Shown here in pieces: positions 40,361 through 43,633 of a stretch of 64,000 nucleotides of DNA. The notes under the pieces are model-generated. The model ran no database searches, had not been told where the DNA came from, and saw only the letters and a list, made by a program, of their open reading frames with translations. Numbering within the stretch: the first letter of the stretch is position 1; every line of letters starts with the position of its first letter. The DNA lies in NCBI GenBank assembly GCA_964383785.1, contig CAYLJB010000003.1, positions 858 through 64,857 on the forward strand, written 5' to 3'. Made by a program: the position numbers and the translations under genes. This DNA is from an uncultured Fluviicola sp. GTDB lineage: Bacteria > Bacteroidota > Bacteroidia > Flavobacteriales_D > Crocinitomicaceae.

Positions 40361-40447
<87 letters not shown>

Positions 40448-40487
40448 CAACGATGCGGTGAAAAAAATGAGAAAATCATTTTTGTGC

Positions 40488-40517
40488 TTGCAAAAGAGAG
40501 AAAAGTCACTATCTTTG
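40488..40517 (+). promoter_or_regulatory. Primary-sigma promoter for tRNA-Pro
   Basis: TTG ... TATCTTTG (40510-40517). Confidence 0.7.
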
Positions 40518-40582
40518 CACCCGCAAATGAGCATTCCACTTCGCAAGCGGCGAAGTGCTGAAAGACATAAAAAAGCCTAGTT

Positions 40583-40657
40583 CGGGGCGTAGCGTAGTCC
40601 GGTCATCGCGCCTGGTTTGGGACCAGGAGGTCGCAGGTTCGAATCCTGCCGCCCCGA
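40583..40657 (+). tRNA. tRNA-Pro(TGG)
   Basis: CGGGGCG/CGCCCCG acceptor stem, CCTGG-TTTGGGA-CCAGG anticodon arm, GGTTCGAATCC. Confidence 0.96.
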
Positions 40658-40664
40658 CGAAACA

Positions 40665-40704
40665 AAAGGGGATTCTGATATTTCGGAAATCCCCTTTTTT
40701 ATTT
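40665..40704 (+). terminator. Terminator-like hairpin after tRNA-Pro
   Basis: AAAAGGGGATTCTGA-TATT-TCGGAAATCCCCTTTTTTATTT. Confidence 0.75.
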
Positions 40705-40721
40705 ACTAGGAATAGACATGA

Positions 40722-40941
40722 GCTCACATAGCTCATCCCGAAAATGATCGGGAGGATAGAGCATCCCGACCTTCAAGTCGGGAAGGTCTCAGGTTCGAAT
40801 GAACTATGTGTGTTAGAATAAAAAGAAATTAGGTCCCATAGCTCATCCCGAAAGCGATCGGGAGGATAGAGCATCCCGACCTTCAAGTCGGGAAGGTCTC
40901 AGGTTCGAATGAACTATGTGTGTTAGAATAAAAAGAAATTA
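40722..40941 (+). repeat. Two tandem 110-bp tRNA-Arg-derived units carrying TCCCGA/TCGGGA hairpins (pseudo-tRNA array)
   Basis: 40727-40831 and 40837-40941 are identical except for 2 nt in the first hairpin loop. Both share CATAGCTCA, GGATAGAGCA and AGGTCTCAGGTTCGAAT with the adjacent tRNA-Arg. Confidence 0.92.
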
Positions 40942-41015
40942 GGTCCCATAGCTCAGCTGGATAGAGCAACTGCCTTCTAAGCAGTAGGTCTCAGGTTCGA
41001 ATCCTGATGGGATCA
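40942..41015 (+). tRNA. tRNA-Arg(TCT)
   Basis: GGTCCCA/TGGGATC acceptor stem, ACTGC-CTTCTAA-GCAGT anticodon arm, TCAGG-TTCGAAT-CCTGA T arm. Confidence 0.96.
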
Positions 41016-41019
41016 CGTT

Positions 41020-41117: not shown

Positions 41118-41137
41118 ATATCGTAATATTGCAATAT
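41118..41137. promoter_or_regulatory. Probable ArsR operator
   Basis: Imperfect palindrome ATATCGTAAT-ATTGCAATAT 12 nt upstream of the arsR ATG. Confidence 0.6.
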
Positions 41138-41149
41138 GTAAATATTAAG

Positions 41150-41476
41150 ATGGGAACAACAAAGACCGAACAATTTACAGCAGAACAAGTGGAACAAGCC
41201 GCGTGGTTCAAAGCGATTGGCAATCCGGCGAGACTGGCGATCCTGCAATTTCTGGCTAAGCAATCAAGTTGTATTTGTGGCGATATCGTGGATGAGATCG
41301 GACTGGCACAGCCAACGATTTCAGCACACCTCAAAGAACTGAAGCAGGCCGGATTGATCCAAGGAACCATATCCGGAAAAGCAATCTGCTATTGTATTAA
41401 CCAAGATGCAGTGGCGCGTCTCCAAGAGGCACTGCTTGGCTTTTTACCTCCTGCTAAATCTTCAAAATGTTGCTAA
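41150..41476 (+). CDS. arsR: ArsR/SmtB family arsenic-responsive repressor
   Basis: FKAIGNPARL, CICGD, LAQPTISAHLKELK..GLI, C-terminal CC; ATG 41150. Confidence 0.9.
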   Translation: MGTTKTEQFTAEQVEQAAWFKAIGNPARLAILQFLAKQSSCICGDIVDEIGLAQPTISAHLKELKQAGLIQGTISGKAICYCINQDAVARLQEALLGFLPPAKSSKCC

Positions 41477-41494
41477 TTATTTAATTGAATAGAT

Positions 41495-41971
41495 ATGAAA
41501 CTTTCAACTTTTAAAAACGCGTTGCAGTCTGTGGATAGTCTGCAATTTGTATTGCCAAACGGCCAATCTGTACCGGCTCATTTTCACATCACCGAGATCG
41601 GAAACATCACGCGTCATTTCATTGATTGCGGAGGAACTGAACGCATCGAGCGCAAAGTAAATTTCCAATTGTGGGTAGCTGGAGATACGGACCACCGTTT
41701 GAAATCAGAGAAATTGCTACGCATCATTGAGTTGGGTGAAAAACAATTAGGTCTAGGCGACTTGGAGATCGAAGCAGAATACCAAGGAGATACTATCGGG
41801 AAATTCGCTGTGGAGTTCAATAACGGGATCTTCTTCCTGAAGTCTACACAAACGGCTTGTTTGGCAGAGGATGCGTGTGGTATTCCAGTGGAGAAGCAAA
41901 AAGTTTCTTTACAAAGTTTGGGTACCCAATCAGATAGCAGTTGTTGTACTCCCGGTTCAGGTTGTTGTTAA
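41495..41971 (+). CDS. DUF6428-like protein (ars-associated, Cys-rich C-terminus)
   Basis: VPAHFHITEIG, FIDCGG, QLW, TACLAEDACG, CCTPGSGCC. Confidence 0.8.
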   Translation: MKLSTFKNALQSVDSLQFVLPNGQSVPAHFHITEIGNITRHFIDCGGTERIERKVNFQLWVAGDTDHRLKSEKLLRIIELGEKQLGLGDLEIEAEYQGDTIGKFAVEFNNGIFFLKSTQTACLAEDACGIPVEKQKVSLQSLGTQSDSSCCTPGSGCC

Positions 41972-41981
41972 ACACAGAGTT

Positions 41982-42599
41982 ATGTTATTGGTTTCTATCG
42001 CGCATCTATGCCGAGAATTAACAACCGGTTTTGATCAGATTTCGGAAGAACGAAAAGCAACACTGGAACAACTCAGTGCATTTGTACAAACACGACTGGA
42101 AAATGGACAACAAGTAGATTTAATCTATGTCTGCACCCACAATTCGCGTCGTAGTCATATCGGTCAGATAGCGGGAGCTGTTGCGGCGGCATTTTACGAT
42201 CTGGATAACATCGAAACGTATTCAGCGGGTACCGAAGCCACTGCGATTCATACGAATACATTGACAGCTTTAGAAGATCTTGGCTTTCATGTACAAACGC
42301 TTGAAAGTGGATCAAATCCAAAAATGCGTATCGGTTTCGGAACAACGGAACATAGCATCTGTTTTTCCAAGACCATCGACGATGATTCTTTGCCAAAATC
42401 GGATTTTGCGGCTTTAATGACCTGTGGTGATGCAGATGAGAATTGTCCGTTCATCCCGGGATGTGCGATCCGTTTGCCATTCCGTTATGTCGATCCGAAA
42501 AAAGCTGATGGTACTCCGGAAGTGAAACAAGTTTATCAAGATAAGGTGCGCGAGATCCTGCGCGAACAATTGTATGTATTTTCAAAAGTAACACGATGA
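41982..42599 (+). CDS. arsC: LMW-PTP-fold arsenate reductase-like protein
   Basis: VCTHNSRRS P-loop, SAGTEAT, MTC..ADENCPFIPG, DPK. Confidence 0.8.
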   Translation: MLLVSIAHLCRELTTGFDQISEERKATLEQLSAFVQTRLENGQQVDLIYVCTHNSRRSHIGQIAGAVAAAFYDLDNIETYSAGTEATAIHTNTLTALEDLGFHVQTLESGSNPKMRIGFGTTEHSICFSKTIDDDSLPKSDFAALMTCGDADENCPFIPGCAIRLPFRYVDPKKADGTPEVKQVYQDKVREILREQLYVFSKVTR

Positions 42600-43633
42600 A
42601 CGCAAAACGTAAAAGACTCACATTTTTAGATCGTTACCTCACCCTATGGATCTTTATGGCCATGGCCGTTGGAATTGGTTTGGGTTATGCTTTACCTGGT
42701 TTATCGACGGCAATTGATAACATGTCAAGCGGCACCACGAACATTCCGTTGGCGATTGGTTTGATCATCATGATGTACCCACCGTTGGTGAAAGTGAAAT
42801 TTGCCGAGATCCCGAAGGTGATGGCCAAGCCGAAATTACTGCTTGCGTCGTTCTTCATTACTTGGATCGTTGGACCTTTCATCATGTTCTTGTTGGCAAC
42901 GACCTTGTTGCGCGATTATCCGGAATACATGACCGGGTTGGTGATCATTGGTCTGGCTCCATGCATAGCCATGGTGATCGTTTGGAATGAATTGGCTCAA
43001 GGGAACAGGGAATTGGTTGCTGGATTAGTTGGTGTAAATAGCTTGTTGCAAGTGGCGTTCTTCAGTTTGTACGCGTACTTTTATCTGGAGATCATGATGC
43101 CTCTTTTTGGTATCCGCGGCTTGTCCTTAGACGTCACCATCGCTGAAATTGCACAAACGGTCGGGATTTACCTCGGAATTCCTTTTGCTGCAGCAGTACT
43201 TACTCGTATGCTGGTTATTCGGGCTAAGGGTATCGATTGGTTGGAGCGCAAATTCATTCCGTTCATTTCTCCGTTCACCTTGATCGCCTTGTTATTTACG
43301 ATTGTTGTGATGTTCAGCCTGAAAGGAGACCAGATCATTGAATTGCCGCTGGACGTATTGCGTGTGGCTTTGCCTTTGGTGATCTTTTTCATCATTATGT
43401 TCTTGCTGATGTTCGCCGTAGGGAAATGGATCGGTGCGTCTTATACGGACAATGCAACACTCTCTTTTACGGCATCCGGTAACAACTTCGAATTGGCCAT
43501 TGCAGTGGCGATCGGTGTTTTTGGTGTCAACAGCGGACAAGCCTTTGCAGGAGTGATCGGACCCTTGGTGGAAGTACCCGTGCTCATCGGTATGGTAAAC
43601 GTAGCGTTTTGGCTGAAAAAGAAATGGTATTAA
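42596..43633 (+). CDS. acr3: ACR3-family arsenite efflux transporter
   Basis: LDRYLTLWI, MMYPPL, APCIAMV..WN, GNNFELAIAVA, GPLVEVPV. Confidence 0.95.
   Translation: MNAKRKRLTFLDRYLTLWIFMAMAVGIGLGYALPGLSTAIDNMSSGTTNIPLAIGLIIMMYPPLVKVKFAEIPKVMAKPKLLLASFFITWIVGPFIMFLLATTLLRDYPEYMTGLVIIGLAPCIAMVIVWNELAQGNRELVAGLVGVNSLLQVAFFSLYAYFYLEIMMPLFGIRGLSLDVTIAEIAQTVGIYLGIPFAAAVLTRMLVIRAKGIDWLERKFIPFISPFTLIALLFTIVVMFSLKGDQIIELPLDVLRVALPLVIFFIIMFLLMFAVGKWIGASYTDNATLSFTASGNNFELAIAVAIGVFGVNSGQAFAGVIGPLVEVPVLIGMVNVAFWLKKKWY

What the first reader, a model, noticed from the sequence alone, without database searches (positions are those of the whole stretch)
40718..41015. Tandem array of re-engineered tRNA-Arg copies with loops swapped for TCCCGA/TCGGGA hairpins
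Seen in sequence: two 110-bp units abut the intact tRNA-Arg(TCT) and align with it segment by segment. The tRNA reads ggtcccatagctca|gct|ggatagagca|actgccttctaagcagt|aggtctcaggttcgaat|cctgatgggatca. Unit 2 reads ggtcccatagctca|TCCCGA-aagcga-TCGGGA|ggatagagca|TCCCGAC-cttcaa-GTCGGGA|aggtctcaggttcgaat|gaactatgtg. Both substitutions start right after a CA and use the same TCCCGA/TCGGGA stem. The only difference between the unit bodies is in the first hairpin loop (aaatga vs aagcga). The lost 3' T-stem/acceptor strand is replaced by TGAACTATGTG (40800-40810), which pairs at 10/11 positions with the unit's own 5' CACATAGCTCA (40725-40735), so a new closing stem forms. The array also opens with the hairpin ATGAGCT-cacat-AGCTCAT. 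Inference: this is not random pseudogene decay. It looks either like targeted placement of a REP-like palindrome into tRNA loops (HUH/RAYT-type ssDNA chemistry or template switching) followed by tandem amplification, or like a structured tRNA-mimic RNA, for example a decoy for anticodon nucleases or a processing modulator of the tRNA that reads AGA. No enzyme gene is adjacent, so any machinery must act in trans.
Basis: partly seen in the sequence, partly recalled or inferred. Interest (0 to 1): 0.85.

Follow-up and report, generated by a model that had tools for sequence, protein, structure and literature searches.

The report
Hairpin-rewritten tRNA copies from nuclease element
Two broken copies of the front of an arginine tRNA gene, with two of their arms rewritten into a fixed DNA hairpin, sit just before the intact gene; the same design recurs at many tRNA genes across Bacteroidota beside a tiny nuclease gene that likely makes or spreads these copies.

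Summary
The two 110-bp units are real (contigs of four other metagenome runs carry them). They are 3'-truncated tRNA-Arg copies (positions 1-60) with TCCCGA..TCGGGA hairpins in the D loop and in place of the anticodon stem. They are not a one-off and not RAYT-linked. The same hairpin marks partial copies of tRNA-Val, -Leu and -Ser in this genome. Two tRNA genes here are followed by cassettes of a ~85-aa GIY-YIG nuclease gene plus a hairpin-bearing tRNA remnant. Across GTDB the anticodon arm is replaced exactly at 26|44 in 61 of 66 scoreable loci. The old anticodon is often kept in the loop (19 of 71 vs 5.5 expected), so stems look overwritten in place rather than pasted in. The nucleases form a tRNA-adjacent group (27 of 30) apart from Ssn-like proteins (0 of 20). 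Best reading: gene-less units of a tRNA-nesting GIY-YIG/hairpin repeat system, Ssn-like in logic; enzyme action is inferred. Eight paper searches found no description; this scan has reported the same system on other DNA (17 notes).

The parts
40361..40448 (+). tRNA-Ser(GCT), first gene of the cluster
40583..40658 (+). tRNA-Pro(TGG)
40664..40699 (+). Terminator-like stem after tRNA-Pro. Its inner part (40673-40688) is a degenerate TTC(T)GA..TCGGAA hairpin where most relatives have a shorter, different loop; possibly a fifth overwritten hairpin (inferred)
   Evidence: sequence; relatives
40711..40820 (+). Unit 1 (distal, more decayed): leader + tRNA-Arg positions 1-60 (40722-40800) + spacer
40736..40753 (+). 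TCCCGA-N6-TCGGGA hairpin replacing D-loop bases 15-17 in unit 1
40764..40783 (+). TCCCGAC..GTCGGGA hairpin replacing the anticodon arm (27-43) in unit 1; loop derived from the anticodon loop
40800..40810 (+). Truncation junction: an inverted near-copy (9-10 of 11) of the unit's own 5' part; likely a fold-back scar, not conserved in homologues
40821..40930 (+). Unit 2 (proximal): leader + tRNA-Arg positions 1-60 (40832-40910, identical to the tRNA outside the two hairpins) + spacer
40846..40863 (+). D-loop hairpin of unit 2
40874..40893 (+). Anticodon-arm hairpin of unit 2
40942..41016 (+). Intact tRNA-Arg(TCT), the template of the units
   Evidence: 71 bits
41020..41042 (+). Intrinsic terminator-like hairpin closing the tRNA cluster

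Best explanation
The units are tandem, gene-less duplicates of the leader and front three-quarters of tRNA-Arg whose D loop and anticodon stem carry a fixed TCCCGA..TCGGGA hairpin, and they likely belong to a selfish tRNA-nesting repeat system driven in trans by a tiny GIY-YIG nuclease encoded beside other tRNA genes of the same genome. Shown: the layout, the exact arm boundaries, the kept loops, the strand and position link to the nuclease genes, and copy-number change. Inferred steps: (1) A tRNA gene exposed as single-stranded DNA folds into its cloverleaf, a branched substrate for an Slx1/Ssn-like enzyme. (2) Nicking near an arm and recombinational or template-switch repair duplicates part of the gene and leaves one intact copy. 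Front-part copies collect upstream; back-part copies, often with the nuclease gene, collect downstream. (3) In the spare copy an arm stem is overwritten with the hairpin motif, probably one strand from a donor hairpin and the other by fold-back copying, which would explain the symmetrical 26|44 junction, the kept loop and the paired 7th position. (4) Hairpin-bearing copies are cut or recombined more often and amplify in tandem. The best candidate enzyme here is the 89-aa ORF behind tRNA-Val (G000:C5:12405-12671, minus strand), whose own tRNA remnant carries the same hairpin in the same arm.
For: Own genome: 7 of 11 hairpins lie in partial copies at 4 tRNA loci; 0.46% of the genome is within 500 bp of a tRNA, P about 3e-8 for 4 of 8 sites. 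4 of 6 GIY-YIG hits are short ORFs in tandem cassettes directly behind tRNA-Phe and tRNA-Val, the intact ones followed by hairpin-bearing tRNA remnants. Right junction exactly at position 44 in 61 of 66 scoreable loci. Cognate anticodon kept in the loop in 19 of 71 vs 5.5 by permutation, p=0.0005; 7th pair T-A in 33 and C-G in 29. Proteins picked by profile alone: 27 of 30 lie next to a tRNA, 16 of 30 next to a TCCCGA hairpin; Ssn-like control: 0 of 20 and 2 of 20. In 151 phylum genomes the median hairpin count is 14 with the nuclease group (n=98) vs 4 without (n=53), while the reversed control pattern does not differ. Catalytic-type Tyr, Arg, His and Glu are conserved in 44 proteins; the fold is nearest UPF0213 and Slx1. 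At the orthologous Arg locus 13 of 21 genus genomes have upstream partial copies and 4 have the nuclease gene just downstream; the closest relative has a clean empty site. Precedent: SsnA binds and cuts ssDNA beside its own hairpin repeat (PMC11893778).
Against: No biochemistry for this protein group; all links are genomic. 12 of 53 genomes without the group still have 10 or more hairpins. G115 has 240, placed inside other dispersed repeats, with only a UvrC-sized GIY-YIG in the assembly, so the hairpin can be abundant without the gene (lost, unassembled or another enzyme). In complete genome G012 only 10 of 31 hairpins lie in tRNA or 5S copies. Hairpin type does not map one-to-one on protein subclade: the nuclease found in cis at the Arg locus in relatives goes with a TCCGCC hairpin. 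Genome statistics are not corrected for kinship, and some GTDB loci overlap (L145-L148). A nuclease alone cannot write sequence; the donor and repair steps are not identified.
Confidence: 0.6

Rival explanations
1. Same parts, but domesticated: the nuclease and hairpin-marked tRNA remnants guard tRNA loci, which are integration hot spots, by cutting incoming or excising single-stranded DNA there, as SsnA limits integration of transforming DNA in Neisseria.
For: SsnA lowers integration of NTS-bearing DNA (PMC11893778). The nuclease group is in 98 of 151 phylum genomes with conserved catalytic residues. The intact tRNA was kept in the loci read.
Against: Tandem arrays of up to about 12 nuclease copies or 9-12 gene-less units, frequent broken ORFs and patchy presence among close relatives look selfish rather than maintained. 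No defence test was possible.
Confidence: 0.15
2. The TCCCGA hairpin is a general Bacteroidota/Chlorobi REP that overwrites any folded ssDNA (tRNA arms, 5S copies, terminators, other repeats) through an unidentified enzyme or host template switching; the GIY-YIG gene only hitchhikes in tRNA duplications.
For: Hairpins in terminator-like stems, 5S copies and other repeats; hairpin-rich genomes with no small GIY-YIG found.
Against: Does not explain why this protein group sits on the same strand beside tRNA remnants in several phyla, why sister groups go with their own palindromes, or the genome-level co-occurrence.
Confidence: 0.12
3. The units make a functional structured RNA (tRNA mimic, anticodon-nuclease decoy, or processing modulator like E. 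coli rtT RNA).
For: Unit 1 folds stably (z about -4 to -5). RNA-library contigs from 2 of 4 runs cover the units (X16 record 14, X18 record 28). They lie inside a tRNA cluster.
Against: No 3' acceptor strand; anticodon destroyed; closing stem not conserved; unit 2 does not take the same minimum-energy fold; upstream copies end at scattered positions, 46-60 in 40 of 43; absent from the closest relative. RNA contigs cannot show discrete ends and may be precursor or DNA.
Confidence: 0.08
4. A RAYT/IS200-like HUH transposase inserts the palindrome as a pre-formed REP into tRNA loops.
For: REP-like hairpin; some D- and T-loop cases look like plain insertions of an identical 18-mer. HUH chemistry on ssDNA hairpins is established knowledge.
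Against: The single Y1 gene in this genome has another palindrome. Only 2 of 10 Y1 loci from hairpin-rich genomes have a hairpin within 1.5 kb, and 0 of 3 in G115. Kept anticodon loops argue against pasting a ready-made hairpin into the anticodon arm.
Confidence: 0.05

Closest known systems
Ssn family (SsnA, cd10448) with NTS/SRM hairpin repeats; Chenal et al. 2025, PMC11893778 (read parts 1-5 of 11 plus term search; supplements not read)
   Same: Single-domain GIY-YIG protein of about 85-95 aa; gene flanked by a dispersed hairpin repeat with fixed stem and free loop; repeat also scattered genome-wide; the authors raise an IS/REP-like selfish origin.
   Different: Separate protein group in my tree; different motif (no CGTC-tagged ATTCCC..GGGAAT); nested in tRNA-gene duplications and tandem arrays; hairpin replaces tRNA arms at exact boundaries. 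The words tRNA, Bacteroid and Flavobact do not occur in that paper's main text. Activity untested here.
REP/RAYT (TnpA-REP, REPINs, BIMEs); PMC3733652 (passages), PMC6006769 (listing only)
   Same: Short palindrome dispersed in tens to hundreds of copies, acted on in trans, forming clusters.
   Different: Partner gene is GIY-YIG, not HUH; no GTAG/CGTC tag seen; preference for copies of stable-RNA genes; loop inherited from the target.
Stand-alone bacterial Slx1-like / UPF0213 GIY-YIG proteins; PMC1564403 (passages), PDB 1zg2, 1ywl, Slx1 6seh
   Same: Nearest sequence and fold matches; minimal GIY-YIG domain.
   Different: The passages seen give no tRNA or repeat association; UPF0213-like proteins form their own group with another palindrome and no tRNA neighbour.
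Phage T4 SegB, a free-standing GIY-YIG homing endonuclease in a tRNA cluster; PMC2330249 (listing and start of abstract only)
   Same: GIY-YIG gene that promotes inheritance of a tRNA region.
   Different: SegB cuts dsDNA sites in a phage. Here the protein is of the Slx1-like side, chromosomal (only 2 of 45 viral-contig hits are genuine), with tRNA remnants and hairpins.
E. coli tyrT 3' repeats / rtT RNA (mostly recalled; one passage in bioRxiv 2024.07.17.603846) and tRNA-targeting genomic islands (recalled)
   Same: Tandem tRNA-derived repeats beside a tRNA gene; insertion that duplicates part of a tRNA gene and restores an intact copy.
   Different: No integrase or cargo; both 5' and 3' part duplications occur; arms are rewritten with a fixed hairpin.

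Membership tests
Ssn/SRM | Small single-domain GIY-YIG protein with catalytic Tyr/Tyr/Arg/Glu | tested here: met
   PF01541 hit; invariant Y16, H30, E62 and near-invariant Y5, R26; model with GIY-YIG fold
Ssn/SRM | Protein falls in the Ssn (cd10448) clade | tested here: not met
   Quick tree of 70 proteins: 38 tRNA-adjacent proteins separate from 21 Ssn-like proxies and 11 UPF0213-like ones, SH-aLRT 93/92/96. The proxies are homologues of one NTS-flanked protein, not SsnA itself; CDD was not available; only 89 columns.
Ssn/SRM | Gene flanked by the NTS/SRM motif | tested here: not met
   Flanks carry TCCCGA, TCCGCC or CCTGCC-type hairpins inside tRNA remnants; NTS-like motifs flank 13 of 20 Ssn-like controls
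Ssn/SRM | Gene associated with its own hairpin repeat, locally and genome-wide | tested here: met
   16 of 30 loci with an adjacent TCCCGA hairpin; median 14 vs 4 per genome; exceptions
Ssn/SRM | Site-specific cleavage of ssDNA beside the hairpin | not testable with these tools
   Needs purified protein
REP/RAYT | Y1 HUH transposase gene flanked by the same palindrome | tested here: not met
REP/RAYT | Dispersed multi-copy extragenic palindrome | tested here: met
Functional tRNA / tRNA mimic | Cloverleaf with paired acceptor and T stems, or a conserved substitute | tested here: not met
   No Rfam tRNA score on the units; 3' strands missing; substitute stem not conserved
Functional tRNA / tRNA mimic | Discrete stable RNA product | tested here: inconclusive
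   RNA-library contigs cover the units in 2 of 4 runs but cannot show ends or strand
tRNA-targeting integrative element | Partial tRNA duplication with an intact gene restored; filled and empty alleles | tested here: met
tRNA-targeting integrative element | Tyrosine or serine integrase in the element | tested here: not met
   The 283-bp Pro-Arg spacer holds no ORF of 80 aa or more; the ~400-bp cassettes at C4 and C5 hold only the GIY-YIG ORF in frame with the remnants

The most novel reading that the evidence does not exclude
An undescribed class of minimal selfish element: one ~85-aa GIY-YIG enzyme reads tRNA genes as folded single-stranded DNA, breeds in them by duplicating their halves, and rewrites arm stems in place with its own recognition hairpin while keeping the host loop. 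That is a structure-directed sequence-overwriting process that has remodelled tRNA loci across Bacteroidota and several other phyla.
Probability: 0.35. Interest if true: 0.88.

Novelty: new variant of a known kind. Interest (0 to 1): 0.68.

Why it matters
It ties a very common but unexplained protein group (small 'GIY-YIG nuclease family protein' genes, 98 of 151 sampled phylum genomes) to a defined DNA motif and target, which makes a direct ssDNA cleavage assay possible and could extend the Ssn toolbox to new specificities. Exact arm replacement with an inherited loop is not explained by the transposition chemistries I know, and points to an uncharacterised way of rewriting folded DNA. It also warns annotators: full-length rewritten copies are called as odd or suppressor tRNAs by ARAGORN (13 'Stop(TTA)' calls in L102, Ile(TAT) in L172; Pro(AGG) and Arg(GCG)).

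Tried and rejected
Assembly artefact: rejected, units lie in contigs of other runs. Rfam family: none on the units. RAYT link: rejected. Conserved new closing stem: 0 of 39 rows beat shuffles. That test mis-registered the 5' segment in four rows with D-loop inserts (L007, the window's own, L155, L184, L186) and took a wrong cognate in two (L162, L173-Pro); the window was retested alone. Phage-borne element: 45 viral-contig matches, of which only 2 have tRNA-like context and a GIY-YIG gene; the other 43 lack both and show that the pattern gives chance hits in GC-rich DNA. Likewise 25 of 126 GTDB loci failed my tRNA-context regex, some of them real copies missed by it. NCBIfam gave no family above cut-off. 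A sigma-70 promoter scan found nothing, but it does not cover Bacteroidota promoters. The careful 84-protein tree did not finish; quick trees with few columns were used, and no one-clade test was run. Hairpin-type versus protein-subclade co-evolution could not be separated from locus orthology. RNA runs X15 and X17 had no contig over the units, which proves nothing. Paper searches found no description; subscription journals and supplements were not searched. Look-ups of earlier findings by narrow words, by sequence, by relatives and by genome were empty.

Full report
Observation. The window holds a tRNA-Ser/Pro/Arg cluster. Between tRNA-Pro and tRNA-Arg(TCT) lie two 110-nt direct repeats. Each is 31 nt of leader or spacer plus tRNA-Arg positions 1-60, ending after the T loop. 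D-loop bases 15-17 are replaced by an 18-nt TCCCGA..TCGGGA hairpin. The anticodon arm (27-43) is replaced by a 20-nt hairpin whose loop is the anticodon loop minus one base. Unit 2 is otherwise identical to the tRNA; unit 1 has extra changes at its 5' end. Rfam scores only the three real tRNAs. Contigs from 4 of 4 laid DNA runs cover the units, one across the unit junction without a difference; strains differ at the 5' end of unit 1, and joints suggest other unit numbers. The closest relative found (G015, 95% identical around the tRNA) has a clean empty site.

Own genome. There are 11 such hairpins. Seven lie in partial copies of tRNA genes next to the intact gene (Arg four, Val, Leu, Ser); four look like terminator stems. 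Only 0.46% of the genome is within 500 bp of a tRNA (P about 3e-8 for 4 of 8 sites). Of 6 GIY-YIG hits, 4 are short ORFs in tandem cassettes directly behind tRNA-Phe (C4) and tRNA-Val (C5); the three intact ones run into a 3' remnant of that tRNA carrying hairpins, and the fourth is truncated. The Val remnant has the same TCCCGA hairpin in the same arm. The one Y1/HUH transposase gene has a different palindrome.

Relatives. At the orthologous Arg locus, 13 of 21 genus genomes carry upstream partial copies (TCCCGA or TCCGCC hairpins, or decayed), with acceptor sequences that mostly follow each genome's own tRNA. Four have the nuclease gene just downstream; 3 of the 21 had too little downstream sequence. 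Of 126 loci, 74 have a same-strand tRNA and 2 an opposite one, 46 have a small GIY-YIG hit (all same strand), 101 pass a tRNA-context regex and 42 have two or more copies; some overlap. The query fixed only the left junction, yet the tRNA sequence resumes exactly at position 44 in 61 of 66 scoreable loci, over 15 tRNA types. Upstream copies start at or before base 2 (38 of 43) and stop at 46-60 (40 of 43). Downstream copies start at 3-22 (34 of 35) and 22 of 35 run to the 3' end or beyond. The most distal copy is the most decayed in 10 of 18 arrays, the proximal one in 1.

How the arm was changed. The loop inside the hairpin remembers the cognate anticodon: 19 of 71 contain it against 5.5 in permutations (p=0.0005), and the pair next to the fixed stem is T-A in 33 and C-G in 29. 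The fixed stem shares only 2-4 of 10 bases with the original stems in 60 of 71, while the flanks match the resident tRNA by selection of the rows. So the stem looks overwritten in place on both sides. One-sided change followed by fold-back copying would explain the symmetry (inference). The inverted near-copy at the window's truncation junction (p=0.0002-0.003) fits fold-back repair too, but it is not a conserved RNA stem. Some D- and T-loop cases look like plain insertions of an identical 18-mer, so two routes may exist.

The protein. 44 tRNA-adjacent proteins keep the GIY-YIG catalytic-type residues (roles from established knowledge). The model (pLDDT 79) is nearest UPF0213 and Slx1. A profile finds the group in 98 of 151 phylum genomes, often as tandem arrays. 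The 30 best loci, picked by protein alone, have a same-strand tRNA in 27 and an adjacent TCCCGA hairpin in 16. Twenty Ssn-like controls have no tRNA within 600 bp, NTS-like motifs in 13 and TCCCGA in 2; a quick tree separates tRNA-adjacent, Ssn-like and UPF0213-like groups. Genomes with the group have more hairpins (median 14 vs 4; reversed-pattern control 2 vs 1; not kinship-corrected).

Against. Twelve of 53 genomes without the group have 10 or more hairpins. G115 has 240, inside other dispersed repeats, with no small GIY-YIG found. In G012 only 7 of 31 hairpins are in tRNA copies (one judged by eye) and 3 in 5S rRNA copies; the rest are dispersed. So the hairpin is a wider REP-like motif and the enzyme link is correlative. 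RNA-library contigs cover the units in 2 of 4 runs, which fits read-through in the tRNA precursor but shows no discrete RNA.

Known systems. The closest is Ssn/SRM (PMC11893778; parts 1-5 of 11 read): a small GIY-YIG enzyme that binds its own ssDNA hairpin and cuts beside it. This system works like it in logic but fails clade and motif membership, and that paper does not mention tRNA or Bacteroidetes. The REP survey (PMC3733652, passages) and the GIY-YIG phylogenomics paper (PMC1564403, passages) show no such tRNA nesting in the passages seen. Eight searches found no description; supplements were not read. After my reading was formed (stated), one search showed 17 earlier scan notes, 8 of them displayed, describing the same system on other DNA. 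They are unchecked AI notes and are not counted as evidence.

Verdict. The feature is real and non-random: gene-less units of a widespread tRNA-nesting GIY-YIG/hairpin system, apparently unpublished. Mechanism confidence 0.6; class: new variant of the Ssn/REP kind; interest 0.68. The exact 26|44 boundary and the inherited anticodon loop are the most surprising and most testable points.

Noticed in passing
window 41129-43633: Directly after the tRNA-Arg terminator: ArsR-family regulator, DUF6428, an ArsC-like protein (no Pfam hit; judged from its CTHNSRRS motif, recalled) and an SBF/Acr3-type transporter, i.e. an arsenic-resistance-like operon. Of the relatives read, only G015 also has arsR here, so the 3' side of this tRNA is a variable insertion site.
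   Followed up: partly
G000:C4:31111-32020 (L001): tRNA-Phe followed by two identical 402-bp cassettes (84-aa GIY-YIG gene + tRNA 3' remnant with a CCTGCC-type hairpin in the T loop).
   Followed up: yes
G000:C5:12000-12922 (L003): tRNA-Val followed by one full and one truncated GIY-YIG cassette; the remnant carries both a TCCCGA and a CCTGTC-type hairpin.
   Followed up: yes
L102 (Saprospiraceae MAG): At least 13 near full-length rewritten tRNA-Val-like copies at 101-bp spacing, called Stop(TTA) tRNAs by ARAGORN; likely false suppressor calls, or a candidate for a functional variant.
   Followed up: no
G012:C1 3022849, 3029319, 3153842 (L272, L273, L275): The same hairpin sits in partial copies downstream of 5S rRNA genes (5S confirmed for L272), so the system may also act on rRNA genes.
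   Followed up: partly
G115 (L364-L377): 240 TCCCGA hairpins, often in twos and threes inside a dispersed MITE-like repeat with GGGCACCTCT-type ends; no small GIY-YIG found in the assembly.
   Followed up: partly
L038-L043, L050, L055 (relatives): UPF0213-like small GIY-YIG genes are often flanked by their own palindrome family (CTGAGC..GTCGAAG type) and not by tRNA; probably a third nuclease/hairpin pair besides Ssn and the tRNA group.
   Followed up: partly
G000:C81 (L096): RAYT-like Y1 transposase gene flanked by GCTGGTGCGCG..CGCGCACCAGC palindromes.
   Followed up: partly
L333, L346, L311, L312 (IMGVR_UViG_3300050505_000468) and L318, L319: A viral contig with arrays of about 72-bp spaced repeats containing a TCCCGA..TCGGGA stem and variable spacers, with no tRNA or GIY-YIG nearby; CRISPR-like in layout, unrelated to this finding as far as tested.
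   Followed up: no
window 40489-40520: Bacteroidota-type promoter-like sequence (TTGC .. TATCTTTGCA; consensus recalled) upstream of tRNA-Pro.
   Followed up: no
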